This document shows positions 1-14,115 of a stretch of DNA of 14,115 nucleotides, in pieces. Each line of letters starts with the position of its first letter. Position 1 is the stretch's first letter. The stretch lies in the UHGV virus genome UHGV-0305805; one strand, written 5' to 3'. The notes below the pieces were generated by a model. It saw only the letters and a program-made list of their open reading frames with translations, was not told the DNA's origin and searched no databases. The position numbers and the translations under genes were made by a program. The stretch comes from a virus.

Positions 1-133
1 AACAGCATACAGAAGGGGCTTAAAAGCCCCTTTAGTGTTTTATGGGTGAAAAAATTATGAAGAGTATGGAAATCCGGTCATCGGAAATCACTACCAGCGG
101 AGCCGGTACGCTGACGGGCTACGTTGTTCGCTG
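1..133. repeat. Inverted repeat, left copy: exact reverse complement of 3003-3135
   Basis: Base-by-base comparison: 1-133 equals the reverse complement of 3003-3135, and identity stops at 134 (g versus t). It contains the palindromic hairpin GGGGCTTAAAAGCCCC (14-29) plus T-rich tract, and the first ~30 codons of the protease gene. Confidence 0.9.
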
Positions 134-614: not shown

Positions 615-615
615 T

Positions 616-1827: not shown

Positions 1828-2162
1828 ACATAGGGCGACTGCGTGACAGGATAACGATTCAGACCCTGAAACAGACCAGGGATATAACCGGCGAAATACT
1901 CGAAACGTGGGAGGACGGTCACACACTCTGGGCAAGCGTGAACATGGTCAGCAGCAAGGAGGCCATTTCATCGGGCGCAGAGCTGGCGATTGGTACCGTA
2001 AGGATCTGGATACGGTACCGGAAGGACATCAACGCCACCAGCCGGATAAAGGTCAGTACGGGGCCGCTGGCGGGGCGTGTACTGAATATCATCGGGCAGC
2101 CGCTGCCGGATGCCGCCAGGACACGCCTTGAAATTCTTTGTCGTGAGGGCGCGGAAAAATGA
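1824..2162 (+). CDS. Head closure / head-tail joining protein
   Basis: About 112 aa starting MNIGRLRDRITIQ at an ATGA overlap with the portal stop; contains an IRYRKDI-type motif common in head-tail joining proteins. The ORF track extends it to 1782. Confidence 0.6.
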   Translation: MNIGRLRDRITIQTLKQTRDITGEILETWEDGHTLWASVNMVSSKEAISSGAELAIGTVRIWIRYRKDINATSRIKVSTGPLAGRVLNIIGQPLPDAARTRLEILCREGAEK

Positions 2163-2455
2163 CAGAAGAACTTATCACCCTGGAAGAAGTGAAACTCCAT
2201 TGCCGCATCGATGGCGACGATGAAGACCAGTTAATCAGCGGATACATTGCCGCATCGCTTGAGGCGTGCCAGATACACATAGGCAGGCGCTTTGATGACG
2301 GGCTGGAGTTCACGCCAGCCATAAAGATTGGCTGCATGATGTTTATCGCTCACCTGTATGAAAATCGCCAGATTGTCGCGGATAACGCAAAAACACGCGT
2401 ACCCATGACGATAGGCGCACTCTGGACGGCTTACCGTGATGTGGGGGTGTACTGA
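2159..2455 (+). CDS. Head-tail connector (gp6-like DNA-packaging / connector protein)
   Basis: 98 aa; N-terminal ITLEEVKLHCRIDGDDEDQLI resembles the conserved N-terminus of gp6-type connectors. Translationally coupled on both sides. Confidence 0.65.
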   Translation: MTEELITLEEVKLHCRIDGDDEDQLISGYIAASLEACQIHIGRRFDDGLEFTPAIKIGCMMFIAHLYENRQIVADNAKTRVPMTIGALWTAYRDVGVY

Positions 2456-2895
2456 TGCCGTGGCAACCATTAAGACGATGCACAGAACCAGGCTGTAACA
2501 GGCGCGTTAAATCCGGCAAGTGTGAGGAGCACAGGCGGGCGGCATGGCGTGCAGAGGATGCCAGACGAGGACACCGCCGCGCGCGTGGATATTCCAGACA
2601 GTGGGACAAATACCGCGCCATGTATCTGAGTAAAAACCCGTTATGCGTGCGATGCCTTGAGAAGGGGATATATACGCCCGCCGTGGTGGTGGATCACATT
2701 ATCCCGATTAATGGCGGTGATGATGTTCTCTTCTGGCCCGAATGGAACCATCAACCATTGTGCCAGGCGTGTCATAACCAGAAAACGAAATGGCTTGATC
2801 CGGCAACAAAAAGCAAGCGTGCCGCAGGTGGATTTCGTGAAGAGGAAGAACGGGCCGCTAACCGCAATAACTGGATGTATGACGCTGATGAATGA
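2455..2895 (+). CDS. HNH endonuclease (packaging-associated)
   Basis: 146 aa with paired cysteine motifs (CTEPGCNRRV, CVRCLEKG) and the catalytic-type region VVDHIIPINGGDD...NHQPLCQACHNQKT. Confidence 0.85.
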   Translation: MPWQPLRRCTEPGCNRRVKSGKCEEHRRAAWRAEDARRGHRRARGYSRQWDKYRAMYLSKNPLCVRCLEKGIYTPAVVVDHIIPINGGDDVLFWPEWNHQPLCQACHNQKTKWLDPATKSKRAAGGFREEEERAANRNNWMYDADE

Positions 2896-3058
2896 GCGGG
2901 AACAAAACCGCCTTATCCGTGGACTTATAAGGCAGCGTGACGCATGGAAGACACAGGAAACAGGGCATAAAGATAAAGCGTCAGGACGCGCAGAACGCAT
3001 CACAGCGAACAACGTAGCCCGTCAGCGTACCGGCTCCGCTGGTAGTGATTTCCGATGA
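2888..3058 (+). CDS. Short ORF (56 aa) whose last 18 codons lie inside the inverted repeat; possible 5' remnant of a disrupted gene downstream of HNH
   Basis: ATG at 2888 overlaps the HNH stop. Codons 1-38 are unique sequence; the remainder is antisense of the protease 5' end supplied by the repeat. The longer 2657-3058 version in the ORF track overlaps HNH out of frame. Confidence 0.2.
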   Translation: MNEREQNRLIRGLIRQRDAWKTQETGHKDKASGRAERITANNVARQRTGSAGSDFR

Positions 3059-3135
3059 CCGGATTTCCATACTCTTCATAATTTTTTCACCCATAAAACA
3101 CTAAAGGGGCTTTTAAGCCCCTTCTGTATGCTGTT
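3003..3135. repeat. Inverted repeat, right copy: exact reverse complement of 1-133
   Basis: Same comparison as the left copy. The repeat ends one base short of the last capsid codon position (capsid stop is the complement of 3134-3136). Confidence 0.9.
3091..3121 (-). terminator. Intrinsic terminator after the capsid gene
   Basis: GC hairpin GGGGCTTTTAAGCCCC at 3106-3121; on the minus strand it is followed by TTTAGTGTTTT. A second copy sits at 14-39 inside the left repeat. Confidence 0.6.
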
Positions 3136-4291
3136 AATCGTCGTCCTGTGGCAGTTCCAGAATCTTGATCGCGTTCGAATCCACCACGCCACCGCCTAAA
3201 TATTTCTGCGTGAAAATTTTGATGAAGCCCGGCTCTGTGAGGTTGTCCGGTCTGGTGCGAACACCTGTTTCGTGATCAACAATGTAGTAACCGCGTTTGA
3301 AGTCACCCAGGGCAATAACGTTATCCGGCATAAACTCCAGATATTCGACCGGAAGGCCCAGTAACGTATCAGGATCACCCGCCTGTAAACGGTCGCGCCA
3401 GATGTAATCACCGTTCGCGTTCTTCACCTTCTGAAGTTTTGCCGCCGTCGTGGAGTTAACCACCCAGACCGCGTTTTTGCGGTATTTTTTACGTAATGCA
3501 AATTTCAGGTCGATCAGCGGGTCCGCAGATGTCCACGCCAGAGATTCGGAAGGTTTAATTACCTGCAACGTACCAAAATCACGCTCTTTGTCGTTCTTCT
3601 CTGCACGGGGTACGGATAAAAAGCCTTTTGCTTTTTTGTCACCGTCGCCCACAACCAGATCGCTTTCTTCGGTTTCCGTGAAGTTGTCGCCAATCTCGCC
3701 CGTCAGCCATGAAAGGATGTCCACATCGGAAAAATCCACGATTTCCTGCGTGGTGCGCGGGTACGCATAGACCGGATACAGCTTAATGCTCACCTCGTTA
3801 ATCTGCGGGGTGCTGGTCTGTTCGCGTGCCTTACCCTCTTCACCGTGGTTAACGGTCGCACCGCCAGCGGAAACAAGCTGCTTAAACTCGTTGCTGCTGA
3901 TTTTCTTCACGGTACAGATGCGGCGCATGGTGGATTCATCCGTCAGCATTCGCATGATTTCGGTGTTCAGTTCGGGGATAACGGTATAACCACCATCAGC
4001 GGGAACGCCTGTACTTAATGCGCGGGTTTCACCTGTCAGAATGTAGTGACGTAGTTCGGCTGGGTCAGTGGTCTGACTGCTTTTACCTGGCTTGCTGCGC
4101 TCTTCGTCTGCAATGGCTTCAAGGCGGGAAATGTCTTTATCGAGGGATTCAGCTTTAGCGCGTAATTCGTCAAATTTTGCGCCCTCAGCATCGTTAAGAC
4201 TGCGGTTTTCTTTTTCCGCGTTCTCCAGCATGTCGCGCATCTGATTTTTAATGGCGGTTTTCTGCTGGCGTAATTCGATTATTCTCGGCAT
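3134..4291 (-). CDS. Major capsid protein, HK97 fold, with an N-terminal coiled-coil (scaffold-like) domain
   Basis: 385 aa. The first ~70 residues are charged and heptad-like (ELRQQKTAIKNQMRDMLENAEKENRSL...), followed by a capsid-like body. Confidence 0.85.
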   Translation of the reverse strand: MPRIIELRQQKTAIKNQMRDMLENAEKENRSLNDAEGAKFDELRAKAESLDKDISRLEAIADEERSKPGKSSQTTDPAELRHYILTGETRALSTGVPADGGYTVIPELNTEIMRMLTDESTMRRICTVKKISSNEFKQLVSAGGATVNHGEEGKAREQTSTPQINEVSIKLYPVYAYPRTTQEIVDFSDVDILSWLTGEIGDNFTETEESDLVVGDGDKKAKGFLSVPRAEKNDKERDFGTLQVIKPSESLAWTSADPLIDLKFALRKKYRKNAVWVVNSTTAAKLQKVKNANGDYIWRDRLQAGDPDTLLGLPVEYLEFMPDNVIALGDFKRGYYIVDHETGVRTRPDNLTEPGFIKIFTQKYLGGGVVDSNAIKILELPQDDD

Positions 4292-4328
4292 AAAAAAAGT
4301 CCTGGGGTTAAGTAAGGAACTCCAGGAC
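4292..4328 (-). terminator. Leader hairpin plus U7 tract directly abutting the capsid start codon; the Shine-Dalgarno lies in the 3' arm
   Basis: Minus-strand RNA reads GUCCUGG...CCAGGAC then UUUUUUU then AUG. Stem 4299-4305 pairs with 4322-4328 and can extend by about 3 more pairs; AGGA is inside the 3' arm. Confidence 0.5.
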
Positions 4329-4503
4329 GCGGCAAAAACTCAACCGTTTTTCATAAGGAAATCAGCAATCGCACCGATCGTTTTCCCGCCTGGTAATGAA
4401 TATTGGCGAGAACATTAACAGGCGGAAAAGTGGCCCCAGCGTCCTGGCACCACGGGCGAGAATAATCATGATTCAGTTCGGGTAAAATATGCCGATCCGC
4501 TCA

Positions 4504-4532
4504 GTGAACAACGTGGAACAACCACGAACAAA
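4504..4532. promoter_or_regulatory. Phased GAACAA hexamers (x3, 10-bp spacing) including CAACGTGGAACAA; upstream of the capsid gene
   Basis: GAACAA at 4506, 4516 and 4526; the 13-mer CAACGTGGAACAA at 4509-4521. Confidence 0.4.
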
Positions 4533-4540
4533 TAATTTAC

Positions 4541-4572
4541 AAAACATGACAAAAAGCCGGATTGCTCCGGCT
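4541..4572 (-). terminator. Intrinsic terminator after the PerC-like gene
   Basis: Minus strand: AGCCGG-agcaat-CCGGCT followed by TTTTTGTCATGTTTT. Confidence 0.6.
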
Positions 4573-4578
4573 GTGTGA

Positions 4579-4860
4579 TTATCTGTCCTGGTAATTTCGC
4601 CATATTTCATTACCAGCACCATCCATACCCATTTCGGCATAAGTGCGATCGACCGCCTTTTTCAGGTCTCCGTAGTTATCCGGCGGCTCCGGTGGCCTCT
4701 GTGCCTTCCTGGAACATTCCAGCCGTCGCATCGTGATGTGATGCCGTTCCTTGTCTGTCTCCACCAGTTGCATGACTTCACCCCATCGCGCCGACGCTCT
4801 CCGGTAAAAGCCTTTCGCCTCCAGTTCTTCCGCTATGCGGTCATGTACCATCGTCCCCAC
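4579..4860 (-). CDS. Small regulator, PerC / ANR-like (tentative)
   Basis: 93 aa; the segment AEELEAKGFYRRASARWGEVM resembles the motif I recall for PerC/ANR-family small regulators. This is from memory and was not searched. Confidence 0.5.
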   Translation of the reverse strand: MGTMVHDRIAEELEAKGFYRRASARWGEVMQLVETDKERHHITMRRLECSRKAQRPPEPPDNYGDLKKAVDRTYAEMGMDGAGNEIWRNYQDR

Positions 4861-4863
4861 CCC

Positions 4864-5274
4864 TCAGAACGGAATATCATCACCGTAAGGGTCATCGCCT
4901 CCCGCTGGTGGCTGATTACCCTGTGTGCCTGTGGTCTTGCGTCGGCTCCCACCAGGACGTGCCGCACGGGCACTGATTACGCTGTCTGCAATAACCTGAT
5001 AACCCTGCCGCGTTTCCCCGTTCTGTCCGGTCCACTGGCTGACCTGCATCGTGCCGGATACGCTGGCAACGTCGCCTTTTTGATGTTTAGCCAGGAAGTC
5101 GGCCTGCTTACCAAATGCGATGACCGATAGCCATAACGTCGCCTGTCCATCCTGTGCCTGGCTGCATGGCAGCGATACCGCCATACGCGCCAGCGTCATC
5201 GGTGTACCCTTGCTGGTCTGTTTTACCTGCGGGTCGTCCACCAGCCGCCCGTAAGCTGCTATCTGTGCTGTCAT
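4864..5274 (-). CDS. ssb: Single-stranded DNA-binding protein
   Basis: 136 aa; Gly/Pro/Gln-rich linker and an acidic C-terminal tail ending DDIPF, the hallmark SSB tip. Confidence 0.8.
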   Translation of the reverse strand: MTAQIAAYGRLVDDPQVKQTSKGTPMTLARMAVSLPCSQAQDGQATLWLSVIAFGKQADFLAKHQKGDVASVSGTMQVSQWTGQNGETRQGYQVIADSVISARAARPGGSRRKTTGTQGNQPPAGGDDPYGDDIPF

Positions 5275-5549
5275 GATTCCACCTCTCCGGTTTTAACGTT
5301 GATGGTTGTTACCTGTTCCGCTTCGGCAATCTCCCGCTCTGTCAGCGTGGCAAAATTTGCCGCCGTCGTGGTCATGAATGCGCTTATCAGTTCGGGATGT
5401 GCTTTCGCGTATCCTTCCCCCGCGTGGCGGTCTATCGTTCTGATTGCCACCTTTAAAGCGTGCTCTGTCATGTCTAACGCGCGATATTTCGGTTCTGTTC
5501 TGTCTCTGCGTTTTTTGAGTGATTTATTAAATTTCCCTGAAGTGTGCAT
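5271..5549 (-). CDS. Hypothetical protein (92 aa)
   Basis: ORF between the origin iterons and ssb; its stop overlaps the ssb start (ATGA). Weak ribosome-binding site. Confidence 0.45.
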   Translation of the reverse strand: MHTSGKFNKSLKKRRDRTEPKYRALDMTEHALKVAIRTIDRHAGEGYAKAHPELISAFMTTTAANFATLTEREIAEAEQVTTINVKTGEVES

Positions 5550-5597
5550 ATTTATTTTTACCCCCTCGTTTAAAAAGTTTTGAGTTGTGCCTCCCCT

Positions 5598-5824
5598 TGT
5601 CTACCTTATCTACCTTAGTGGCCCTCATACCAGTAATGGCGCGGCTTTCAGCGGGGTAGAGTGCTTTTATCCACTATCTACCCCGTGTCTACCTCCCTGT
5701 CTGATTCAGGTAAAATCAGGTAGAGAGGGTAGATAGTGGGTAGACAGTAAAAAAAGGTTATCTACCTAACTTAATGCACTGAATTAAATGTATTTTTCTT
5801 TACTCAGGTAGACAGGGTAGACAG
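5598..5824. repeat. Iteron array, putative origin of replication (GGTAGACAG family, both orientations, with an AT-rich tract)
   Basis: At least 11 copies of GGTAGA[C/G/T]AG or its complement at 5598-5614, 5653-5661, 5674-5693, 5719-5747 (three in tandem), 5758-5766 and 5807-5824 (two in tandem). AT-rich stretch at 5770-5805. Immediately downstream of the primase gene. Confidence 0.75.
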
Positions 5825-5837
5825 CAATTACAAAAAA

Positions 5838-7592
5838 TTATAAAAACGCGTCGCACTCGTCTGTTGTTATTGCGTTAGTCTGCGTTACTCCCTTAACTTT
5901 CCGCGTAATATATTCATGTCCGTAAACTTTCGCGGCTGGCTTCATAGCCTTGCCAAAGTCATTTACGTTTAGCGGTTTGCTCCTGCCTGCGTACGCCATA
6001 AACGCCAGATAGACGCGGTAAAGGCTGTTTCTGGTCGTGTACTTCACTGAATCGCCACCGCCGCCCATCATCAGGCCGCGTGCTTCCTCCAGAAAATTCA
6101 GGAACTGGCAAAACTCAATAACCGGATCCGTCTGTTGCTTTATTGCCAGAGCTTCATCACCGTCACGCTGTTCCAGTAGTAAAGCCCGTGCCTTCTCAGG
6201 GTCGGTAAAGTTCGCCAGCAATCGGCGGATAATGACAGGGATTTCAGCCGCGATCTTTTCCGGTAGCTCCCTGTCTTTTTCGGCCTCACTGACGATATTG
6301 TCGAAACGGAAAATCACGCGACGACGTGCCACACCTCCGGCCCGTTCGGTGAATATCATCGGGTTATTGTTGGTCGCCAGCACCACCGCCCTGATTACCG
6401 CCGTGAAACGCTTTTCGTATTTCGGGTTAATTTCCACGGGGTCACCGCCCGTGATTTTCTTGATGCCCGTTCCTTCGCCTGTATATTTCGGCTGGTCAGC
6501 CAGGACGATAAGACGACTCCCGACAACCTGCGCACGTCCACCAGCATCATCAAGCGATGTCATTTCAGCGCTTACCGTGTTCTGTTTCCCTGCCAGAAGG
6601 CTGGCTATGTGTGTGAATGTACTTTTACCGCTCCCGCCGTCTCCGGTGGCCTCAATAAACATCTGCCAGTCGTACCGGTTCGCCATAATCATGTACAGCG
6701 CGGCACATATACGCATCATCTTGCGCGGGTCTTTTCCGGCTGCGTGCTCAAGCCATTTATGAAAGTTTGGCGCGTTATCGCGGATGTTCTCCCCTGGTGC
6801 TGGTGGCGTGTACTCAATGCCGTTGTGCGTGGTGATCCAGTTCTCCGGCGTGTGCGGGGAAAATTCCCCCGTTTTCAGGTCAAGCGCACCATTGGCGAAC
6901 GGCAACAAATCGCCGGACGGCTCGCCCATTGGTTCGGCAATAACTTTTAACGCTTCCACGGCGTTATTGATTACGCGCTTGCTGAAAGTGGCCCTGTGCT
7001 CTGAATAGATCGCCACCATTTCGCGGCTAAGTTCCATTGTGCTGACCGGACACCATACCCCGCCGCGCCATACGTGAACGATTTCACTTTCAGGATGTAC
7101 GCAAACGCCATCAAAGCGATCGGCAAGCAGCTGCGCGCGCTCACTGTCCGCCATCTGCGAAAGTTGCGCCTTTTGCTTTACCGGAAGCTCAATGACCAGA
7201 CCATCAGAAAGATTCTGGCGCTCACGGGCCAGATATTCGCGCCAGTTCTCCACCTTCTGACCGTGCATACCATCAGGGTAAAAATTTGCATCCTGTACGC
7301 CTGCCGCCGCCAGCTTCTGACCAATCGCCTTTATCATTACTGGCGCAAGATATCCGGCCCTGAATATGCGCACGGATTTTCTGCCTTCCGGCACAATTTG
7401 CAGCTTATCCAGTTCGGATAACTGCTGCTCCCCAAGCCACACAGGAGGCTCATTATCTCCGGCCATACGCGCGTCATGTTCCTGCCATTGTTTTGCGTGT
7501 GACCAGGCATCACTACCCGCAAAAATAATGACTTCTGTTTCTTTGTGTTTTATGCCGCGTGACTGCTGTTTTACGTTCGGTGCCAGTTTCAT
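5838..7592 (-). CDS. Primase / replicative helicase, P4-alpha-like
   Basis: 584 aa; Walker A GDGGSGKST and Walker B-like LIVLADQP in the C-terminal half, with a primase-like N-terminal half. Start overlaps the upstream ORF stop (ATGA). Confidence 0.85.
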   Translation of the reverse strand: MKLAPNVKQQSRGIKHKETEVIIFAGSDAWSHAKQWQEHDARMAGDNEPPVWLGEQQLSELDKLQIVPEGRKSVRIFRAGYLAPVMIKAIGQKLAAAGVQDANFYPDGMHGQKVENWREYLARERQNLSDGLVIELPVKQKAQLSQMADSERAQLLADRFDGVCVHPESEIVHVWRGGVWCPVSTMELSREMVAIYSEHRATFSKRVINNAVEALKVIAEPMGEPSGDLLPFANGALDLKTGEFSPHTPENWITTHNGIEYTPPAPGENIRDNAPNFHKWLEHAAGKDPRKMMRICAALYMIMANRYDWQMFIEATGDGGSGKSTFTHIASLLAGKQNTVSAEMTSLDDAGGRAQVVGSRLIVLADQPKYTGEGTGIKKITGGDPVEINPKYEKRFTAVIRAVVLATNNNPMIFTERAGGVARRRVIFRFDNIVSEAEKDRELPEKIAAEIPVIIRRLLANFTDPEKARALLLEQRDGDEALAIKQQTDPVIEFCQFLNFLEEARGLMMGGGGDSVKYTTRNSLYRVYLAFMAYAGRSKPLNVNDFGKAMKPAAKVYGHEYITRKVKGVTQTNAITTDECDAFL

Positions 7593-7888
7593 TTTTTACC
7601 CCTGAATCCGTTAATCATGGTTTTCAGCTTCTGGATGTTTGCCCGTGCCCTGGCGTTGCTGGTGGACACGTTATGCGGCGCGGTCTGTACCAGAGAAAAA
7701 TCACGCCGGAACTGATAAACAGGCATCACGCAATCATATTCGTAACCTTCACGGCGGTAGGTTACGCGCCGTTCTTCCACGCCCTTAATCATTACCGTGC
7801 CGCCGTACTGGTCGCGGTAAATATCGCCGCGCGTAAATTTAGGGTGAGTGTTGCCACTGGCAGTTAAGCCAGAATATTTAAGTTTCAT
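7589..7888 (-). CDS. Hypothetical protein (99 aa), translationally coupled to the primase
   Basis: ATG at 7886-7888; stop overlaps the primase start. Confidence 0.55.
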   Translation of the reverse strand: MKLKYSGLTASGNTHPKFTRGDIYRDQYGGTVMIKGVEERRVTYRREGYEYDCVMPVYQFRRDFSLVQTAPHNVSTSNARARANIQKLKTMINGFRGKK

Positions 7889-7893
7889 TATTT

Positions 7894-8127
7894 TTATTCT
7901 CCGGTGTGCTGTTCTTTATATCTGTCGTGCAATAGATCTATTTCTTGCAGTTCCATTATTACAGGCTCAAGAAGCGTTATTAATGCCGTGGCAATTCTTG
8001 ATTTTTGTTTGTCGCGTTCATTGTCGCCAAGTGTTTCAAGCCATATGCGCAATATTTCCAGCATGTTTTCACTGTGAGAAAGTGCAAGAAATGCGCGGTC
8101 TATTGTTTCGTGGTAAATATCACGCAT
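7894..8127 (-). CDS. Hypothetical protein (77 aa)
   Basis: ATG with GAGGA upstream; overlaps the stop of the upstream ORF by 8 nt. Confidence 0.55.
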   Translation of the reverse strand: MRDIYHETIDRAFLALSHSENMLEILRIWLETLGDNERDKQKSRIATALITLLEPVIMELQEIDLLHDRYKEQHTGE

Positions 8128-8353
8128 GGCTTACATCCTCAGGAAATTTTCTTCTATAACGCGCCTCTGCCACATATTCCGCATAATCGGCGGCGATATT
8201 CAGTACATCAAGCCCCGTTGATTTATATTCTCTCGTGGAAAGTAAGAAAAAAGCCGCTCTAATAAGTTCTGGCATTGACGAAAGCGCATCAGCCGCATCA
8301 TCAGGAACGCCGGAAAATTCCTGTTTCAGGGAATTAAAACGATCATCACGCAT
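8120..8353 (-). CDS. Hypothetical protein (77 aa)
   Basis: ATG with GGGGGG upstream; 8-nt overlap with the upstream ORF. Confidence 0.55.
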   Translation of the reverse strand: MRDDRFNSLKQEFSGVPDDAADALSSMPELIRAAFFLLSTREYKSTGLDVLNIAADYAEYVAEARYRRKFPEDVSHA

Positions 8354-8711
8354 GTTTACCCCCCTGAATGACCTGATAACCGCAACTGGTCAGCAACTCG
8401 ATAAATTCCGGCAGTGTGCCGAAACAGCAATCATCACGCAGCCGTTCACAGGATACCTCGACGCCGTTTTCGTAGTGACTCACCATACATCCGGTAAAAT
8501 GCAGATCATCATCGTGATGGCTCGTTGACGGCTTAATCAGTCGCGCACGTTCCGCCAGTTCCAGCAATGCTTCAACGCTTCCGGCAATTGCACCATCCGG
8601 CAGGTGATAATTACGCACTATGCGCCCGTTCTCCACATTGACCAGCAACTGCCCGGTAAATTTCTCATCAAACTGAATGCTGTTAAGGTCAGAAATTGAC
8701 AGATTATGCAT
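8346..8711 (-). CDS. Hypothetical protein (121 aa)
   Basis: ATG at 8709-8711 preceded by a perfect AGGAGG at about 6-nt spacing. The ORF track extends it to 8729. Confidence 0.6.
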   Translation of the reverse strand: MHNLSISDLNSIQFDEKFTGQLLVNVENGRIVRNYHLPDGAIAGSVEALLELAERARLIKPSTSHHDDDLHFTGCMVSHYENGVEVSCERLRDDCCFGTLPEFIELLTSCGYQVIQGGKHA

Positions 8712-8928
8712 GGTGCACCTCCTGCACATCAGCCATGATAATTTTTCCGGCCTTATCCAGTGCCTGATCGGCTTTTAGCTGCACAAATGCTAAATAATGG
8801 AAGATGCATTCTGATTCTCTGGCTGCGTGTTTATGCGCCCTGTCAGCAATAACAGAAATATCAATAAGCGCGTGCATCAGCGTAGTGAGCGCGGCGGCGG
8901 CTGCGTCCGGTGTGGTTTTATTGCACAT
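8704..8928 (-). CDS. Hypothetical protein (74 aa)
   Basis: ATG at 8926-8928 preceded by GGAGGGG. The ORF track extends it to 8982. Confidence 0.5.
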   Translation of the reverse strand: MCNKTTPDAAAAALTTLMHALIDISVIADRAHKHAARESECIFHYLAFVQLKADQALDKAGKIIMADVQEVHHA

Positions 8929-9148
8929 GTACCCCTCCGCATTTTTTTTCGTTAGAAATAAGCGTTCTTCTTTCCTGTTCATCGCTCAGGAATACGCAGA
9001 CCTCACCGCTAAGGCGTTTAAGTAAGCCGATGATTGCCCCTGATTCGCTGTCGGTCATCATGCCAGGGTAATCCTCTGCCAGTGCGCAAATAACTTCGAT
9101 TTGGTGGGCGCGTTCTGCTGCCTGTTGTAGTGTGATTTCCTGGCTCAT
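8918..9148 (-). CDS. Hypothetical protein (76 aa)
   Basis: ATG at 9146-9148 preceded by GGGGGTAGG; ATGA overlap with the upstream ORF. Confidence 0.55.
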   Translation of the reverse strand: MSQEITLQQAAERAHQIEVICALAEDYPGMMTDSESGAIIGLLKRLSGEVCVFLSDEQERRTLISNEKKCGGVHVQ

Positions 9149-9345
9149 AAGCCTACCCCCTGACGAATACGGGCAGCAAATACCATCACGCAGCCAGCCG
9201 GAGATTGCTGGCGTGCTTCCTGTTCGCTGGTGGCCTCAATGGTAATCACGCGCGGTTGTGCCGTGCTCAGGGCGATAAAACGCCAGATGTATTTATTCAG
9301 GTTGTGCGAGTCCCGCCCTTGCGGGTGTGTGGTATGATTTCTCAT
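9145..9345 (-). CDS. Hypothetical protein (66 aa), first gene of the leftward operon
   Basis: ATG at 9343-9345 preceded by GAGGTAG. It is the C-terminal part of a 340-aa ORF in the track that I regard as spurious upstream of this start. Confidence 0.5.
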   Translation of the reverse strand: MRNHTTHPQGRDSHNLNKYIWRFIALSTAQPRVITIEATSEQEARQQSPAGCVMVFAARIRQGVGL

Positions 9346-9441
9346 AGCTACCTCGATACTTTCGCTATCGTTGGTGGTTAGAAGCCCGGTTAGTGTTAGC
9401 GCACTGCCGGGTTTCGTCGTTTCTGCACCTTGCGCCAACAA

Positions 9442-9495
9442 GGTGTTGAACACCAATTTAAACCCAGGTGTTAAACACGTCAAGTGTTGAACACT
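9442..9495. promoter_or_regulatory. Three palindromic operator-like sites, GTGTT-N-AACAC, between divergent promoters
   Basis: GGTGTTGAACACC at 9442-9454, GTGTTAAACAC at 9468-9478, AGTGTTGAACACT at 9483-9495; centres 25 and 16 bp apart. The third overlaps a -35-like TTGAAC for the rightward gene. Confidence 0.6.
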
Positions 9496-9544
9496 TATTT
9501 TTTTTCCTGCATACTGCATTTGTTTTTTATGAGGGGTACACCAC

Positions 9545-9724
9545 ATGGCGACAAAAGCGGTAAACGCAAAATCACAAACCGTTGCGGCAAGGGTTCCGCA
9601 TGAAGTTATGAACAATGTTGAGGCGGTAAAAATGCCTGGCGAAAGTACGGGGCAATTTGTTACTGCGGCATTAAAACGAGAAGTTGAATATCGCCAGCGG
9701 CGCAAGGCCAAAGAACCAGAGTAA
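9545..9724 (+). CDS. Ribbon-helix-helix (Arc/CopG-like) DNA-binding protein, candidate repressor
   Basis: 59 aa, ATG preceded by GAGGGG at 8-nt spacing. Sequence fits a beta-strand (TVAARVPHEV) followed by two helices; basic C-terminus. Below the 60-aa cutoff of the ORF track. Confidence 0.55.
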   Translation: MATKAVNAKSQTVAARVPHEVMNNVEAVKMPGESTGQFVTAALKREVEYRQRRKAKEPE

Positions 9725-9781
9725 TCACCATCAGCGCCGTGGTGTAAGGTATTACGGCGCATTGCTATGCAGGACAACACA

Positions 9782-9955
9782 ATGACCGATAAAGAATTGA
9801 CCAAAACATTATCACCGGCACGGAAAAGACGGCGCAGAAAGATAGAGCATGAATCAGAAAGATTCGCGCCATGTGCTTTTGCCCTTGAGCAATTCCTTAA
9901 AGAGTACAGGGAAAAGCGCTCATTGCAGGTATGGCAACGAACTGAACCAGACTGA
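9782..9955 (+). CDS. Small basic protein (57 aa), possibly co-transcribed with the ribbon-helix-helix gene
   Basis: ATG at 9782 with AGGA about 9 nt upstream; arginine/lysine-rich (ARKRRRRKIEHE). Coding status uncertain. Confidence 0.3.
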   Translation: MTDKELTKTLSPARKRRRRKIEHESERFAPCAFALEQFLKEYREKRSLQVWQRTEPD

Positions 9956-10050
9956 TTGCATTGCCCACCAGCCTGATAACGGCTATCATCCCCGTGCTTA
10001 TGTTTGGGATCACACACACAAACGGCGCAGCGGGTTATCTGTTCAGAAAG

Positions 10051-10078
10051 GCGGCTCCATTTCGGGGCCGCTTTTTTT
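10051..10078 (+). terminator. Intrinsic terminator ending the rightward transcript
   Basis: GCGGCTCC-attc-GGGGCCGC followed by seven T. Confidence 0.65.
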
Positions 10079-10224
10079 ATACCTGAAAAACCCCAATTTT
10101 GTTGTTTTTCAGTTTCACCAGGGCGAACGAATCCCCGCCCACGTTCTGGCGTATATTCAATCTTCATGGTTATAGCTCTGTGTTCAGATGATTGATGTGT
10201 GGCGGCTGCGTGCCGCCAGCGTGA

Positions 10225-10413
10225 TTAATGAACTGCCTTGCAGCTATCCTTCCAGGCCAGAACCTCGGATAAAGACCAGCCAACGGAACGACCGCCAAGT
10301 TTACGACGTGATGGGAATTGTCCGGCCTTTTCCAGGCGGTAGCGACACGTACGGCTAAGGCCGGTTAGTTTTTCGCATTCTTTTTCACGTATAAACCGAT
10401 CAGTGCTTAACAC
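10225..10413 (-). CDS. alpA: AlpA-family phage regulatory protein (helix-turn-helix activator)
   Basis: Contains EKLTGLSRTCRYRLEKAGQFPSRRKLGGRSVGWSLSEVLAW, matching the AlpA helix-turn-helix signature. Likely start is GTG at 10411-10413 preceded by AGGGGGG; the ORF track extends it to 10494 with a TTG start. Confidence 0.8.
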   Translation of the reverse strand: MLSTDRFIREKECEKLTGLSRTCRYRLEKAGQFPSRRKLGGRSVGWSLSEVLAWKDSCKAVH

Positions 10414-10686
10414 TATTGCCCCCCTTTCGTTTCTTAAAGAGTCATCAGGTGTCTTATTGTGTCGTATTGTTCCCGCTAGAGTGATGAATGGCAAATACTG
10501 AGGATGTATGATTTACAGAAAATGAAACAGTAAGAATAAAATCTTTTAAATTCATGTTAATACAAAGGCATAAAATATTGTTCCATGCCTTTTTTCTCGC
10601 TCTTTAAAGAGTGATTCGCTAGTGTACAAAAAACCAGTAACGCATTAAAAATCAGCCACTTATAAATCCGTACGCTTTTTCGCCTC

Positions 10687-10730
10687 TTGTTCGTAGTTGT
10701 TCCACATTGTTGCTCATTGTTGCACGTTGT
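10687..10730. promoter_or_regulatory. Phased TTGTT[C/G] hexamers (x4, exactly 10-bp spacing) ending in the complement of CAACGTGCAACAA
   Basis: TTGTTC at 10687 and 10697, TTGTTG at 10707 and 10717; the 13-mer at 10717-10729. Located between the integrase stop and alpA, in opposite orientation to the other three clusters. Confidence 0.4.
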
Positions 10731-10778
10731 ATCTGTTCGCATATCCAGTATGCGCATACTGAAAAAACACGAAAAAAA

Positions 10779-12008
10779 TTATTTTCTTCTGGCTACGGGT
10801 AGCGTGGTTACGTTTTCATGTGTTCCCGCCAGTATCCCTAACCGCTCCGTCCACATATCCAGCGCATTGCGTTTCGCATCCAGATAACGGGAATGATTAT
10901 AAACTCGCTGCATTCCTGGCATCTGGTGGCCTGTAAGCTGCTCCACGACATGCGGATCAACGCCTAAATCGTTCAGCATGGTTGTAAAGGTGCGCCGGAT
11001 GTCATGCAGTGACCAGTGAGGGTGATTAAGCCTCCTGTACGCTAATCTTCCATACTGCGATACGCTGGCCTCCTGTTTCACTTCCCCCAGCAATAAGCCC
11101 GTGTGCCTGTTCTGCTCCACCAGCTGCGTGACGAACGGCAGGATCGCTTCCGGTATGGGCCGGAATATTGCGACCTTCGTTTTGCTGTGCTCCTTCGGAA
11201 CGGTCCATAGCATTTCCGTAAAATCCCACTCCCCGATCTCCGATAACCTCAGTTCTACCGTTCTGGCTCCGAAGACAATCAGGAGGCGGATTAACGCGAC
11301 GTAGTAAGGGGAGAATATTTTTTTGTCCAGTGCCTGCAATAATTCGCCAAGTTCTTTGTTACTTAAGACACGTTCGCTTATATCCGGTTTTTTCCCAACG
11401 TCCGCAACGTTCAGATCGTCCAGAACGTTGCTGATTGCATAGCGCCGCCTACGGCAGAACTTAAGCGCCTGTTTGCACGCCTGTAGCACGAATCCGGCAG
11501 TAACAGGCGTTCGCTTTGCCACCTGGTCAAAACAGGCCAGCCAGTGCCGTAGCTCGCATTTATCCAGCGGCATAGCACCAATCTGCTGTATTACGTGATT
11601 ATTAAGTCGCCTTTTCAGGGCGATATAATCCACGCGGTTTTCCTTTACGTAATACTCAAGCCAGTAGGTGAGCGCATCGCCAACCGTTACGGGCTTTAAC
11701 GCTTCCTGTACGGTGTAATTCATCTCATGACGTGGATTTTTCCCCTCAGCCAGCCATGTGCGACACTGTGCGGCTTTTTCCCTGGCTGCTTTCAGGCTCA
11801 GATCAGGATAACTTCCCAGCTTAATGCGTTCGGGTCGTGTCTCCCTTCCCGTTCCGGCCCTGTATGTGAAATACCAGGTCAATTTCCCTGATGTTAAATA
11901 TTTCACGCTCAGGTTTCCGCCATCACTATAAAACGTGTTTTTCTCCGCTGGCTTACCATGAAGTTTCCTTAGCAAGGTATCGCTCAGTTTGTTCATTGCT
12001 CTGCTCAC
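10779..12008 (-). CDS. int: Tyrosine recombinase / integrase, P4-like
   Basis: 409 aa with catalytic-region motifs ARTVELR, HDIRRTF and a C-terminal YNHSRYLD tyrosine context. Start could be GTG at 12008 or ATG at 11996. Confidence 0.9.
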   Translation of the reverse strand: MSRAMNKLSDTLLRKLHGKPAEKNTFYSDGGNLSVKYLTSGKLTWYFTYRAGTGRETRPERIKLGSYPDLSLKAAREKAAQCRTWLAEGKNPRHEMNYTVQEALKPVTVGDALTYWLEYYVKENRVDYIALKRRLNNHVIQQIGAMPLDKCELRHWLACFDQVAKRTPVTAGFVLQACKQALKFCRRRRYAISNVLDDLNVADVGKKPDISERVLSNKELGELLQALDKKIFSPYYVALIRLLIVFGARTVELRLSEIGEWDFTEMLWTVPKEHSKTKVAIFRPIPEAILPFVTQLVEQNRHTGLLLGEVKQEASVSQYGRLAYRRLNHPHWSLHDIRRTFTTMLNDLGVDPHVVEQLTGHQMPGMQRVYNHSRYLDAKRNALDMWTERLGILAGTHENVTTLPVARRK

Positions 12009-12033
12009 GTTTTACCCCCTCTTTACGAAAAAG

Positions 12034-12056
12034 TGACTACACCAGTGACTACACCG
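12034..12056. repeat. 23-bp direct repeat, copy 1: TGACTACACCAGTGACTACACCG (tandem decamers)
   Basis: Exact match to 12267-12289. Sits 26-48 bp upstream of the integrase start and is followed by CAACGTGAAACAA (12076-12088) and phased GAACAA-like hexamers to about 12109. Confidence 0.8.
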
Positions 12057-12266
12057 ATCGTTGCACAAAGGGCTACAACGTGAAACAAGCTGGAACAAGG
12101 AAAATCACAAATCTGTTGATAATCAAAAACATAATGCACAGCCTGAAACATTATGAAACAGCAAAAAACACTAAATGATAAAATGCTGTTATATATAACT
12201 TATTTCGCATAACACATTGATTTAATTAAATAATTAACACCGCAAAAAGTGCCAAAAATCGCAAAA

Positions 12267-12289
12267 TGACTACACCAGTGACTACACCG
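12267..12289. repeat. 23-bp direct repeat, copy 2, followed by CAACGTGGAACAA (12309-12321)
   Basis: Exact match to copy 1. The 210 bp between the two copies is strongly AT-rich. Confidence 0.8.
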
Positions 12290-12551
12290 TTCGGTGCACT
12301 GTATGAAACAACGTGGAACAAATAGACACAAGAAATATACAGGCGGATCATCTTTCCAGGGGGAAGCACACCAATTCATGAGGGGCGTTAATGTCGATAT
12401 GGGGATCCCCACCTACCGGAATTTTTTTCCGGTTAAACGTTAATCAGGCTGGTGGGCTTTACCTGTTCGGTAGGTGTTATGATTATCGTAATACCTTTCC
12501 CCCAATGGGGTAAAAGCATCAACCGTAACGAAAGTCGTTATGGTTGCCACT

Positions 12552-12662
12552 GATACCCCAAATTTGGGTATCACGAGTAAGCCCCAAAATCTGGGTGTTA
12601 CTCTTACTACCCAAACTACGGGTAGTTTCCGTAGTTTCATGGTCGAGTTGCAGATCTGCAAC
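12552..12662. repeat. Cluster of four palindromes/hairpins in a gene-free region
   Basis: GATACCCCAAATTTGGGTATC (12552-12572); a CCCAAA...GGG unit near 12582-12597; ACTACCC-aaactac-GGGTAGT (12606-12626); perfect palindrome GTTGCAGATCTGCAAC (12647-12662). The first three share a CCCAAA-N-GGG(T) core spaced about 26 bp. Confidence 0.5.
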
Positions 12663-12918
12663 TCCCCCATTAACCACAGGCGAATTTCCGCCTTCGGTCA
12701 TTCCTTAATCATCTGCGTAATCATAATGATTATTCAGCAAGCGCAATTTTGCGCTTTGCTTAAAGTTCAGCGAGTTACCGCGCCGACTTCCTCAAATTGA
12801 GGTTTCCGAAAATATCAGCGGGTTAGCGATTAAGCTGACCATTAATTAAACTGCGAAAATGTCGTAGTTGTGAGGGGTGTAGCCAACCCATTTTTGGGCC
12901 GTCGGGAATATCAACCAG

Positions 12919-13200
12919 TTACCGCCGCAACCGCTCCGGCTTCTTCCAGTGGTACGTTATTTTCTCCTTCTCCCGATACATCTCCACGCGGCGACGGTAG
13001 GCCAGCAACTCAAGAACTCTGGTTCGTATGTTGCGCATATCCACGCCATTAAGTTCTATACCATCACGGCGCATCACCTCAGCAACAACACGCGCATAGT
13101 TTTCGGCTGTCACGCTGTCCGGCTGCGTGGCCTGTTCGTCAGCCTGCTGGCTGATTCCGGCAACGCGGCGGATTAATCCCGTTATTTCGGCTTCTGTCAT
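12919..13200 (-). CDS. Hypothetical protein (93 aa) downstream of the terminase fragment
   Basis: ATG at 13198-13200 with GAGG 8 nt upstream; starts 11 nt after the terminase-fragment stop; composition is protein-like. Confidence 0.5.
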   Translation of the reverse strand: MTEAEITGLIRRVAGISQQADEQATQPDSVTAENYARVVAEVMRRDGIELNGVDMRNIRTRVLELLAYRRRVEMYREKEKITYHWKKPERLRR

Positions 13201-13213
13201 GCTGCTGACCTCA

Positions 13214-13963
13214 TTACACCCCGCTAAATTCTTCCAGTTTCTGGCGGTGGCTGTCGCTTATATCAAAAGCAAAATCCTCATGCTCTGCCTGGAATGTACC
13301 AAACGCCATCAGCGCCGCCACGCTCGGGTCTATCTTGTTCGGTGATTTTTTCTTGTTCGGCTTGATATTGGCGTTCGCGTCACTCTGCATCACGACGTTA
13401 CTCATCGACCAGGACAACACCGGATCGCCACGATGCACAATCACCCTGCGGTTAACAAAAACTTCGAACGATTTCGCCGCCGGACTGAATCTGAGGTAGG
13501 TTTGCGGGAACGGCTCCACCTCAAAACCTGCCCCCTGTAATTGCGTTCTGAGATGCGTGGCGTTCCACGTATCAAAGCCCACCAGCCTGATATTAAATTT
13601 CTCCGCGTCCTGCATGATGTCATCTCTGATCCGGTCGTAATCAATGCAGTCGCCAGGCGTTGTGCGTATCCAGCCTGCTTTAGCCCACTGACGATAGATG
13701 GCGCGGTTTTTATTGGCGGGGTTCTGTAGCTGAAATTCCGGCAGATAGTGACGGGAAACCAGCATAATGGTTTTACCGACCGGAAAGGCATAGCACACGC
13801 TGGAAATATCGCTGGTTGATGATAAGTCCAGCCCCGCGTAACACTCCTGGCCGTGTAAATCTTCCTCCGTGAACGTTCCGGCACACTCAGCCCATGCGCC
13901 GTTACCCATCCACGGGGTAGCCCCCTGGCACCAGATATTAAATCGCTTTGTCATCATCTCCAC
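13214..13963 (-). CDS. Terminase large subunit, C-terminal nuclease domain only (N-terminal ATPase absent; truncated or rearranged)
   Basis: 249 aa with acidic nuclease-type motifs YAGLDLSSTSD, LVGFDTWN and KIDPSVAALMAF. No Walker A. The reading frame upstream is closed by a stop about 12 codons before the start, and the start lies inside an inverted repeat. Confidence 0.65.
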   Translation of the reverse strand: MEMMTKRFNIWCQGATPWMGNGAWAECAGTFTEEDLHGQECYAGLDLSSTSDISSVCYAFPVGKTIMLVSRHYLPEFQLQNPANKNRAIYRQWAKAGWIRTTPGDCIDYDRIRDDIMQDAEKFNIRLVGFDTWNATHLRTQLQGAGFEVEPFPQTYLRFSPAAKSFEVFVNRRVIVHRGDPVLSWSMSNVVMQSDANANIKPNKKKSPNKIDPSVAALMAFGTFQAEHEDFAFDISDSHRQKLEEFSGV

Positions 13964-13979
13964 CCACTGCGACGGAATA
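13922..13979. repeat. Inverted repeat, inner copy: reverse complement of 14058-14115, the last bases of the window
   Basis: Exact 58-bp match separated by a 78-bp spacer (13980-14057). The outer copy runs off the window, so the repeat may be longer. Confidence 0.9.
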
Positions 13980-14057
13980 GTGGATAAAGGCGAACCCTAA
14001 TATTGATGTTTCCGTCGATCGTGAAAAACTGGCCTCAACCATCCAGAAAGCGCGGGG

Positions 14058-14115
14058 TATTCCGTCGCAGTGGGTGGAGATGATGACAAAGCGATTTAAT
14101 ATCTGGTGCCAGGGG
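14058..14115. repeat. Inverted repeat, outer copy; the plus strand here reads the sense start of the terminase fragment (…IPSQWVEMMTKRFNIWCQG)
   Basis: Reverse complement of 13922-13979; the reading frame continues off the window. Confidence 0.9.

What the first reader, a model, noticed from the sequence alone, without database searches (positions are those of the whole stretch)
12009..12918. About 900 bp of gene-free, repeat-rich DNA with attP-like architecture links the integrase to the packaging end
Two exact 23-bp direct repeats of tandem TGACTACACC decamers (12034-12056, 12267-12289) flank a strongly AT-rich tract and are each followed by the 13-mer motif, resembling integrase arm sites around a core. 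Phage genes lie on both sides of this region rather than host DNA next to the integrase. That fits an excised circular or episomal form or a tandem copy, meaning the window may capture a replicating satellite rather than an integrated one.
Basis: partly seen in the sequence, partly recalled or inferred. Interest (0 to 1): 0.5.

Follow-up and report, generated by a model that had tools for sequence, protein, structure and literature searches.

The report
attP junction of a capsid-forming PICI
The 900-bp gene-free stretch is the attachment site (attP) of a known kind of E. coli phage satellite that inserts into the tqsA gene, followed by a non-coding tail, so the window shows the satellite joined head-to-tail (circle, concatemer or tandem) rather than flanked by host DNA; this is ordinary biology for such elements.

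Summary
Between the integrase start (12008) and the stop of a 93-aa ORF (12919) lie 910 bp with no credible gene. They include two 76-nt direct repeats, each starting with the exact 23-mer, around an AT-rich tract.

The element is a 15.3-kb capsid-forming PICI that integrates into E. coli tqsA. Comparing attL, attR, attB and the window gives a 9-bp identity block, TGCTGTTAT (12184-12192), between the two repeats. It is the reverse complement of the att sequence published for tqsA PICIs (ATAACAGCA). The window sequence equals the attL x attR recombinant.

The same junction is present at 100% identity in one of 5426 complete E. coli genomes, where the island is a chromosomal tandem. In relatives the doubled 12-bp-period motif changes with the integrase N-terminal arm-binding domain, while its spacing stays at 232-233 bp. 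So these are most likely arm sites.

That part is a non-coding tail with a conserved ~125-nt hairpin cluster of unknown function and no lambda-type cos.

Circle, concatemer and tandem cannot be told apart from the window. The window also has two inverted chimeric junctions elsewhere.

The parts
10779..12008 (-). Tyrosine integrase, 409 aa, GTG start with a GAGGGGG Shine-Dalgarno sequence 8 nt upstream. It has an arm-binding N domain, a central domain and a catalytic domain.
   Evidence: Pfam Arm-DNA-bind_3 (1.4e-18), Phage_integrase (6e-16) and a weak Phage_int_M hit; PHROG integrase. The exact protein lies next to pntB/tqsA in all public contigs read.
10225..10494 (-). AlpA-family regulator/excisionase, the candidate recombination directionality factor. 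RefSeq calls a 62-aa version.
   Evidence: Pfam Phage_AlpA 1.5e-16; PHROG 'excisionase and transcriptional regulator'.
12030..12338 (+). Whole attP: P arm, core and P' arm, about 300 bp.
   Evidence: Bounded by the 76-nt direct repeats D2. It equals the in-silico attL x attR recombinant. Found intact in only 2 of 5426 genomes, both tandems.
12034..12056 (+). P-arm doubled motif (GTGACTACACC twice, 12-bp period); proposed arm-type Int sites. Its 3' edge is 131 bp from the centre of the overlap.
   Evidence: The motif changes with the Int N domain in relatives.
12081..12097 (+). TGAAACA/TGGAACA pair, 10-bp period; proposed accessory-protein sites (AlpA or a host factor).
   Evidence: Invariant in L003, which has an identical AlpA. 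It reads RCGAACA in islands whose AlpA is 62-68% identical.
12144..12160 (+). Second TGAAACA pair in the P arm.
12176..12183 (+). TGATAAAA, the proposed left core-type half-site (C). It is conserved among islands with different targets.
   Evidence: Alignments. In L003 it forms a perfect inverted repeat, TGATAAAA-N7-TTTTATCA.
12184..12192 (+). Identity block TGCTGTTAT shared by attP, attB, attL and attR. The proposed 7-bp overlap (strand-exchange region) is TGCTGTT, 12184-12190.
   Evidence: It is the reverse complement of the published tqsA PICI att, ATAACAGCA. The overlap was placed by analogy with L003, whose identity block ends exactly at the spacer end.
12267..12289 (+). P'-arm doubled motif, co-oriented with the P-arm copy. 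Its 5' edge is 80 bp from the overlap centre.
   Evidence: Start-to-start spacing is 233 bp here and in L003, and 232 bp in a third clade.
12304..12320 (+). TGAAACA/TGGAACA pair in the P' arm.
12340..12539 (.). Non-coding spacer shared with a classical PICI (L003). It holds the short palindromes GGGGATCCCC and CCGGAATTTTTTTCCGG and the left arm of a hairpin at 12506-12560 that runs into the next part.
   Evidence: Alignment A2; inverted repeat I2.
12540..12668 (-). Conserved hairpin cluster of about 125 nt, function unknown. It is probably part of the 3' untranslated tail of the late operon. It ends in the 20-nt perfect palindrome GAGTTGCAGATCTGCAACTC.
   Evidence: Fold z-score -8.1 (+ strand) and -8.0 (- strand). 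No Rfam hit at E<=1. Conserved in islands with unrelated flanks. Present in 664 of 5426 genomes, median one copy. The - strand tolerates the common polymorphisms as G-U pairs.
12669..12918 (.). Variable non-coding tail immediately downstream of the 93-aa ORF.
   Evidence: Alignments A2 and A3. One weak terminator-like site on the - strand at 12933-12916.
12919..13200 (-). 93-aa ORF of unknown function, the last gene of the island. It is shared by capsid-forming and classical PICIs.
   Evidence: phrog_1561 at 2.9e-56. No Pfam or PDB match. Always next to attL in public contigs.

Best explanation
Window 12030-12338 is the attP site of a 15.3-kb capsid-forming phage-inducible chromosomal island (cf-PICI) that integrates inside E. 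coli tqsA. The remaining 580 bp, up to 12918, are the non-coding tail of the island's last operon.

Proposed mechanism:
- The P4-type tyrosine integrase encoded next door binds the four GTGACTACACC units with its N-terminal arm domain. Two units lie 131 bp left of the crossover and two lie 80 bp right of it.
- Its core-binding and catalytic domains bind TGATAAAA and an imperfect inverted partner around the 7-bp overlap TGCTGTT (12184-12190).
- The AT-rich DNA and the three TGRAACA pairs provide bending and accessory-protein sites. The likeliest partners are the island's AlpA excisionase/regulator and host bending proteins.
- Strand exchange within TGCTGTT with the identical sequence at about codon 48 of tqsA integrates the island. 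The reverse reaction regenerates exactly the sequence seen in the window.

What is shown: the junction, the identity block, the target, the domain content of Int, the rarity of the junction, and the conservation of the layout. What is inferred: which protein binds which motif, and the exact 7-bp overlap.

The window therefore shows two island ends joined through attP. That arises by excision (circle, replicating concatemer or packaged DNA) or by tandem integration. I lean slightly to an extrachromosomal origin, but the window cannot decide.
For: - Island identity and target: the region matches E. coli chromosomes, where all but one genome match only 12184-12918 next to a 5' fragment of tqsA. 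RefSeq annotation of the same island lists int, AlpA-type HTH, primase, SSB, PerC, HK97 capsid, protease, portal, head closure, connector, HNH, TerS and TerL, with no tail or lysis genes.
- Core: attL, attR and attP share only TGCTGTTAT. The reconstructed empty site is intact tqsA in 5165 of 5426 genomes. The published att for tqsA PICIs is ATAACAGCA, the reverse complement.
- Int has Arm-DNA-bind_3 plus a catalytic domain, and AlpA is present.
- Motif statistics.
- Sister attP (L003, phoQ/roxA): the arms are nearly identical and divergence is confined to about 27 nt at 12185-12211. Its core is TGATAAAA-TATGTCC-TTTTATCA, and its identity block ends at the spacer end.
- Motif tracks the Int N domain: GTGACTACACC here; TTAACTACACC in 3 of 4 copies in L003, whose Int differs mainly at residues 5-60; CTGACCACACA at 64% N-domain identity; GGGTCAGGTAA at 35%.
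- Spacing of the doubled motifs is 233, 233 and 232 bp in three clades.
- The same architecture, a doubled motif in two co-oriented copies at 81+/-2 and 132+/-2 bp from the attP centre, is published for helper-embedded PICIs (PMC10111431).
- The intact junction is rare: 2 of 5426 genomes, both tandems. It is absent from 132 viral and metagenome loci except one contig, L030, and from all contigs read for the exact Int and 93-aa proteins.
Against: - No binding or recombination experiment is available. The authors of the HE-PICI paper themselves leave open whether the doubled motif is bound by Int arm domains, by AlpA or by another protein.
- In the window the right core half-site (ATATATAA) is only a 5/8 match to the expected inverted repeat, and the tqsA attB half-sites are weak, so the 7-bp overlap assignment rests on the sister island.
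- No sigma-70-like int promoter was found in the P arm.
- The contig has two unrelated inverted chimeric junctions, which lowers trust in its long-range structure.
Confidence: 0.9

Rival explanations
1. Physical state A: the junction comes from excised island DNA, either a circle, a replicating concatemer, or cos-cut packaged DNA in which attP is internal. On this reading the window captures an induced, extrachromosomal satellite.
For: There is no host DNA anywhere in the 14 kb, although almost the whole 15.3-kb unit is represented. The contig runs straight through the junction. A short-read assembler would be expected to break there if attP and attR paths had equal coverage (inference). The segment missing from the window (L001 2787-4118) contains the GC-rich HNH-terS spacer, which is the likeliest cos, so the contig breaks fall roughly where packaged DNA would end (inference). 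cf-PICIs are known to form closed circles and cos concatemers after induction.
Against: No reads or coverage data are available. The attP 36-mer was not found in the viral, metagenome or GTDB contig collections. The only exact public match is a chromosomal tandem.
Confidence: 0.5
2. Physical state B: the junction is the internal att site of two island copies integrated in tandem in tqsA on the chromosome, as in strain EC444.
For: EC444 (NZ_CM128674.1) carries two copies 15,263 bp apart and matches 12009-12918 at 100%. The window differs from it by one SNP over the 10,977 bp compared between the two chimeric junctions (window 3003-13979). A second PICI tandem with a related attP exists at phoQ/roxA. 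A metagenome contig reads host-attL-island-attP. PICI tandems at fis are published.
Against: Tandems are rare, 2 of 5426 genomes for this attP family. The window's two inverted junctions are not in EC444 or any other complete genome, so the window is not simply that assembly.
Confidence: 0.4
3. The junction is an assembly or amplification chimera, like the two inverted junctions elsewhere in the window.
For: The window has template-switch-type inverted joins at 3003-3009 (7-nt microhomology) and at 13979/13980, found in none of 5426 genomes.
Against: The attP join falls exactly on the 9-bp identity block, is collinear rather than inverted, and is reproduced base for base in an independent genome.
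Confidence: 0.05
4. The doubled ACTACACC motif is bound by AlpA or another factor, and the TGRAACA pairs are the Int arm sites: the reverse of the assignment proposed here.
For: The HE-PICI paper leaves the binder of its doubled motif open. TGRAACA-like pairs also flank the core on both sides.
Against: In L003 AlpA is 100% identical and the TGRAACA pairs are unchanged, while the Int N domain differs at about 18 of residues 5-60 and 3 of the 4 doubled-motif units carry the same GTG to TTA change. In more distant relatives the doubled motif is replaced outright as the Int N domain diverges, whereas xGAACA persists.
Confidence: 0.2
5. The 12380-12900 part holds the packaging site (cos) or a replication origin of the island.
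For: It lies next to the terminase end. It is rich in palindromes, four ACCC(C)AAA..GGGT units and three long hairpins.
Against: There is no similarity to lambda or classical PICI cos. In the sister PICI the lambda-like cosN lies on the other side of the 93-aa ORF. The hairpin module occurs in islands with three different packaging modules and is absent from L003. An AT-rich stretch lies just downstream of the primase gene (about 5550-5840, GC 0.41), which is where PICI origins are reported.
Confidence: 0.1

Closest known systems
E. coli PICIs integrated in tqsA (EcCI042, EcCIK1516; Fillol-Salom et al. 2018, ISME J, Table S1)
   Same: Same target gene and the same 9-bp att sequence: ATAACAGCA is the reverse complement of TGCTGTTAT. 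Same int-alpA module.
   Different: Those are 11-kb classical PICIs that use helper capsids. This island is 15.3 kb and carries its own capsid and terminase genes.
Capsid-forming PICIs (EcCIEDL933 family; Alqurainy et al., bioRxiv 2022.09.08.507074)
   Same: Gene content and order: int, alpA, primase, HK97-type capsid, protease, portal, connectors, HNH, TerS and TerL, with no tail or lysis genes.
   Different: The paper's text reports six attB sites for the family, but its tables were not readable here. Whether tqsA is among them was therefore not checked.
Doubled attP motif of helper-embedded PICIs (PMC10111431)
   Same: A doubled motif of about 23 nt with a 12-bp period, present as two co-oriented copies at fixed, unequal distances from the crossover. 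The paper reports 81+/-2 and 132+/-2 bp; here the nearest-edge distances are 80 and 131 bp.
   Different: The motif sequence differs (ACTACACC versus TGTATTGC). That paper reports its motif as unique to HE-PICIs, whereas here the same geometry recurs with other sequences in other integrase clades. The paper's reference points for its distances were not verified.
Lambda and P4-type attP (arm-type plus core-type sites, Xis/IHF-assisted intasome)
   Same: An attP of about 300 bp, with arm sites on both sides of a short core, a 7-bp-type overlap flanked by inverted half-sites, an adjacent RDF gene, and an AT-rich bendable centre. This comparison rests on established knowledge of these systems.
   Different: The identity block is only 9 bp and lies inside a protein-coding gene, which is left disrupted. 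No clear match to the IHF consensus (WATCAANNNNTTR) was seen by eye next to the core; no scan was run.
Tandem PICI arrays (fis PICI/PICI tandems, PMC10111431)
   Same: An internal attP between two co-oriented copies.
   Different: Here the tandems are at tqsA and at phoQ/roxA.

Membership tests
attP of an arm-binding (lambda/P4-type) tyrosine integrase | Adjacent tyrosine recombinase with an N-terminal arm-binding domain | tested here: met
   Arm-DNA-bind_3 at 1.4e-18 and Phage_integrase at 6e-16.
attP of an arm-binding (lambda/P4-type) tyrosine integrase | An identity block shared by attP, attB, attL and attR, with attP equal to the attL x attR recombinant | tested here: met
   TGCTGTTAT is shared; attB is intact in 5165 of 5426 genomes; the block agrees with the published ATAACAGCA.
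attP of an arm-binding (lambda/P4-type) tyrosine integrase | Repeated arm-type sites on both sides of the core that co-vary with the integrase arm domain | tested here: met
   Four ACTACACC units; motif replaced in step with Int N-domain divergence; spacing 232-233 bp in three clades. Protein binding itself was not tested.
attP of an arm-binding (lambda/P4-type) tyrosine integrase | Inverted core-type half-sites around a 6-8 bp overlap | tested here: inconclusive
   Perfect in the sister island (TGATAAAA-N7-TTTTATCA). In the window the right half-site is only a 5/8 match.
attP of an arm-binding (lambda/P4-type) tyrosine integrase | Int-dependent recombination at this site | not testable with these tools
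   Needs in vivo or in vitro recombination assays.
Capsid-forming PICI | int plus alpA plus a replication module, its own capsid, portal, protease, connector, HNH, TerS and TerL genes, no tail or lysis genes, and size around 15 kb | tested here: met
   RefSeq annotation of the same island, which differs from the window by one SNP over the collinear part; repeat period 15,263 bp.
Capsid-forming PICI | Helper-phage-dependent induction and use of helper tails only | not testable with these tools
   Experimental property.
Lambda-type cos site of classical E. coli PICIs | cosN GGGCGGCGACCT with flanking cosQ/cosB-like sequence | tested here: not met
   No match with up to 3 mismatches in the window. 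No significant similarity of 12301-13250 to lambda cos.
Any curated RNA family (Rfam 15) for the hairpin cluster | Covariance-model match | tested here: not met
   No hit at gathering score for the whole window, nor at E<=1 for 11950-13000.

The most novel reading that the evidence does not exclude
The ~125-nt hairpin cluster at 12540-12668 is an undescribed functional element of enterobacterial PICIs. It could be a structured 3'-end RNA made from the - strand, or a bidirectional insulator. It would stop late-operon transcription from running across attP into int in the circular or tandem form, and stop host tqsA transcription from entering the integrated island. It is conserved in PICIs with different integrases, targets and packaging modules, is sometimes duplicated, and matches no Rfam family.
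Probability: 0.3. Interest if true: 0.45.

Novelty: new member of a known kind. Interest (0 to 1): 0.27.

Why it matters
The result gives the complete attP of a tqsA-targeting cf-PICI at base resolution: arm sites, accessory repeats, proposed half-site and overlap. It also shows that the doubled-motif, fixed-spacing attP design reported for helper-embedded PICIs is shared by other PICI integrase clades, with the motif sequence co-varying with the integrase arm domain. This gives a simple rule for predicting attP and arm sites of PICIs, and for recognising retargeting by swapping the roughly 27-bp core cassette. Practically, the 36-mer across the core is a specific probe for excised or tandem copies of this island in read data. 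None of this changes current understanding of satellites.

Tried and rejected
- tRNA/tmRNA target: ARAGORN found no tRNA or tmRNA in the window, and the core lies in tqsA.
- Phage homology: megablast and blastn of the region and of the hairpin module against 50,697 phage records gave nothing.
- Searching for the source or for other excised copies: the attP 36-mer is absent from IMG/VR, JGI metagenome and GTDB contigs.
- Lambda/PICI cos in the spacer: rejected.
- The 93-aa ORF as Rpp: no PDB match, although RppC is a solved structure; no Pfam family.
- The hairpin module as a decayed KilA-N gene: only the 20-nt palindrome is shared with KilA-N-like prophage genes, and tblastn E-values are >=0.008, driven by that palindrome.
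- The module as a multicopy MITE/REP-type repeat: rejected, median one copy per genome.
- Covariation for the module: only one double change per strand among 41 near-identical variants, so RNA structure is not demonstrated.
- Promoter and terminator scans of 11900-13000 found no more sites than chance.
- Literature search for the module sequence found nothing.
- The supplementary tables of the cf-PICI paper were not available.

Full report
**1. Observation**

- The integrase ORF starts at 12008 on the minus strand, and the next ORF with any support (93 aa) ends at 12919. That leaves 910 bp.
- The exact 23-mer TGACTACACCAGTGACTACACCG occurs at 12034-12056 and 12267-12289.
- It heads a longer direct repeat of 76 nt at 76% identity (12030-12105 and 12263-12338).
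- The unit is two 10-mers separated by AG, a 12-bp period, not strictly tandem decamers.
- ACTACACC occurs four times in the window, all here and co-oriented. The expectation is 0.25, and 0 of 200 shuffles reach 4.
- Each doubled motif is followed by a TGRAACA pair 10 bp apart, and a third pair sits at 12144/12154.
- GC falls to 0.37 for 12001-12300.
- Short ORFs inside the region have no Pfam hit and are disrupted by indels in relatives.

**2. What the element is**

The 910 bp match E. coli chromosomes and no phage record.
- 107 genomes hold at least 80% of the query. The 24 listed after EC444 all match only window 12184-12918, which abuts a 144-nt 5' fragment of tqsA.
- One genome, EC444, matches all 910 bp at 100%.
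- Its annotation shows two head-to-tail copies, 15,263 bp apart, inserted in tqsA between ydgV/mdtJ and pntB.
- The island genes are int, an AlpA-type HTH protein, Icd-like proteins, primase, SSB, PerC, HK97-type major capsid, prohead protease, portal, head closure, connector, HNH, a P27-family TerS, TerL and a 93-aa hypothetical protein.
- There are no tail or lysis genes.
- This is the gene set of the capsid-forming PICIs (cf-PICIs) described by Alqurainy et al..
- The window differs from EC444 by one SNP, at 10657, over the 10,977 bp compared between the two chimeric junctions (window 3003-13979).

**3. The core**

- The int side of the window is collinear with the integrated island up to 12192, and the other side from 12184 on.
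- attL, attR and the window share only TGCTGTTAT (12184-12192).
- Joining the host flanks across this block gives intact tqsA. That sequence is present in one piece in 5165 of 5426 complete genomes.
- The supplementary table of Fillol-Salom et al. 2018 lists ATAACAGCA in tqsA as the att site of PICIs EcCI042 and EcCIK1516. This is the reverse complement of my block.
- The core therefore lies in the AT-rich tract between the two repeats. It is not in 12380-12900, and the target is not a tRNA.

**4. Architecture and likely mechanism**

The integrase has the Arm-DNA-bind_3 N domain, a weak central-domain hit and the catalytic domain. An AlpA-family excisionase/regulator lies downstream.

A second tandem was found in strain NCCP 13894 (L003). 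It is a classical PICI between phoQ and roxA, with a 91%-identical integrase and an identical AlpA.
- Its attP aligns with the window almost perfectly in both arms. Divergence is confined to about 27 nt at 12185-12211.
- Its centre reads TGATAAAA-TATGTCC-TTTTATCA, a perfect inverted repeat around 7 bp.
- Its att identity block (AAATATGTCC) ends exactly at the end of that spacer.
- In the window the identity block begins exactly after the same TGATAAAA.
- I therefore place the overlap at TGCTGTT (12184-12190). This step is inference.

Evidence that the doubled motif is the arm site:
- The two integrases differ mainly at residues 5-60.
- Three of the four doubled-motif units carry the same GTG to TTA change in L003.
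- The TGRAACA pairs are unchanged there.
- In more distant relatives the P-arm layout is kept. It runs from the int start through the doubled 12-bp-period motif and two xGAACA pairs separated by an AT-rich stretch, then the ~20-nt AAAAACACTAAATGATAAAA-type sequence and the core.
- The doubled motif itself becomes CTGACCACACA at 64% N-domain identity and GGGTCAGGTAA at 35%.
- Start-to-start spacing of the two doubled motifs is 233, 233 and 232 bp in three clades.

This pattern favours the doubled motif as the arm-type Int site and the xGAACA pairs as accessory sites. AlpA is the obvious candidate for the latter, since those pairs read RCGAACA where AlpA is 62-68% identical. No binding was tested.

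The same design has been published for helper-embedded PICIs. There a doubled TGTATTGC motif occurs in two co-oriented copies 81+/-2 and 132+/-2 bp from the attP centre, and the authors left the binder open. Here the nearest-edge distances are 80 and 131 bp. I could not verify that paper's reference points.

**5. Physical state**

The whole attP (12034-12340) is present in only 2 of 5426 genomes, both tandems.
- It is absent from 132 viral and metagenome loci that carry the tail module, except one contig that reads host-attL-island-attP.
- It is absent from every contig read for the exact Int and 93-aa proteins.
- The 36-mer across the core is absent from IMG/VR, JGI metagenomes and GTDB genomes.

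So the junction is real but rare in assemblies. The window contains no host DNA and less than one collinear unit, so it cannot separate circle, concatemer, packaged DNA and tandem.

I lean slightly to an extrachromosomal source, for two reasons. The contig passes the junction unbroken. The only part of the island missing from the window contains the GC-rich HNH-terS spacer where cos is expected. This is inference.

**6. The rest of the region (12340-12918)**

- It is shared with the classical PICI L003, except for about 157 bp.
- It contains a conserved module of about 125 nt at 12540-12668. This module is found in islands with unrelated flanks, different targets (hpt, phoQ, a prophage terminase gene) and different packaging genes.
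- The module is present in 664 of 5426 genomes, usually once. Some contigs have two copies 434 bp apart.
- 12490-12690 folds into a row of hairpins, with z = -8 on either strand.
- It matches no Rfam family.
- Variants are too similar for real covariation. The minus strand, which is the strand of the late operon, accommodates the common polymorphisms as G-U pairs: 5 of 1353 non-standard cells, against 17 of 1271 on the plus strand.
- It is not a lambda-type cos, not a phage sequence and not a decayed KilA-N gene.
- Its function is unknown. An RNA 3'-end or insulator role is my speculation.

**7. Verdict**

The finding is correct and explained. It is the attP of a known type of satellite at a published att site, seen in the joined configuration. 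The comparative support for the arm-site assignment and the conserved hairpin module are small additions. Interest is low to moderate.

Noticed in passing
window 1-3009 and 13980-14115: The window is chimeric. Positions 1-3009 are the reverse complement of island sequence that should lie elsewhere, joined at 3003-3009 through the 7-nt microhomology CAGCGAA. Positions 13980-14115 fold back on terL: a 58-nt inverted repeat around a 78-nt inverted loop. Neither join exists in any of 5426 complete E. coli genomes. They look like template-switch or assembly artefacts.
   Followed up: partly
window 12540-12668: A conserved ~125-nt hairpin cluster with no Rfam match. It is shared by PICIs with different integrases and packaging modules, and is duplicated 434 bp apart in some contigs (L006, L007, L014, L025, L037, L053, L098).
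   Followed up: partly
window 12645-12664; L146 552-571, L159 5503-5522: The 20-nt perfect palindrome GAGTTGCAGATCTGCAACTC, which contains a GATC, ends the module. It also occurs (as GAGTTGCARATCTGCAACTC) inside genes of many prophage contigs, where it encodes ELQICNS. I judged those genes KilA-N-like by eye only; no family scan was run. No homology extends beyond the palindrome.
   Followed up: partly
L003 (NZ_CM167691.1 3192267-3226571): A classical PICI is present as a tandem pair between phoQ and roxA. Its attP has near-identical arms but a different core cassette. A lambda-like cosN (GTTACGGGGCGGC) lies at L003 18088-18100, between the 93-aa ORF and the TerS-like gene.
   Followed up: yes
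L030 (IMGVR_UViG_3300019373_000108): This metagenome viral contig reads host-attL-island-attP and stops inside the next P' arm. It is another PICI caught as a tandem or as a mix of integrated and excised forms. Its identity block is ATAACTATCAT.
   Followed up: partly
L001 3945-4066 (not in the window): The GC-rich spacer between the HNH-adjacent ORF and terS (GACGGGGTGGGGGGCG ... CCCGACCCCGCCGGGCACCG) is the likeliest cos of the cf-PICI. It lies in the 1.3 kb of the island that the window lacks.
   Followed up: no
window 11996-12178 (+): RefSeq annotates a 60-aa hypothetical protein (WP_001332680.1) across the int start and the P arm. The longer 95-aa ORF in the same frame (11891-12178) has no Pfam hit, the region is made of conserved DNA sites, and the sister island has no such annotation. 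It is probably a spurious call.
   Followed up: partly
window 12184-12192 / tqsA: Integration splits the AI-2 exporter gene tqsA after about codon 48 and does not restore it. About 260 of 5426 complete genomes lack an intact site.
   Followed up: partly
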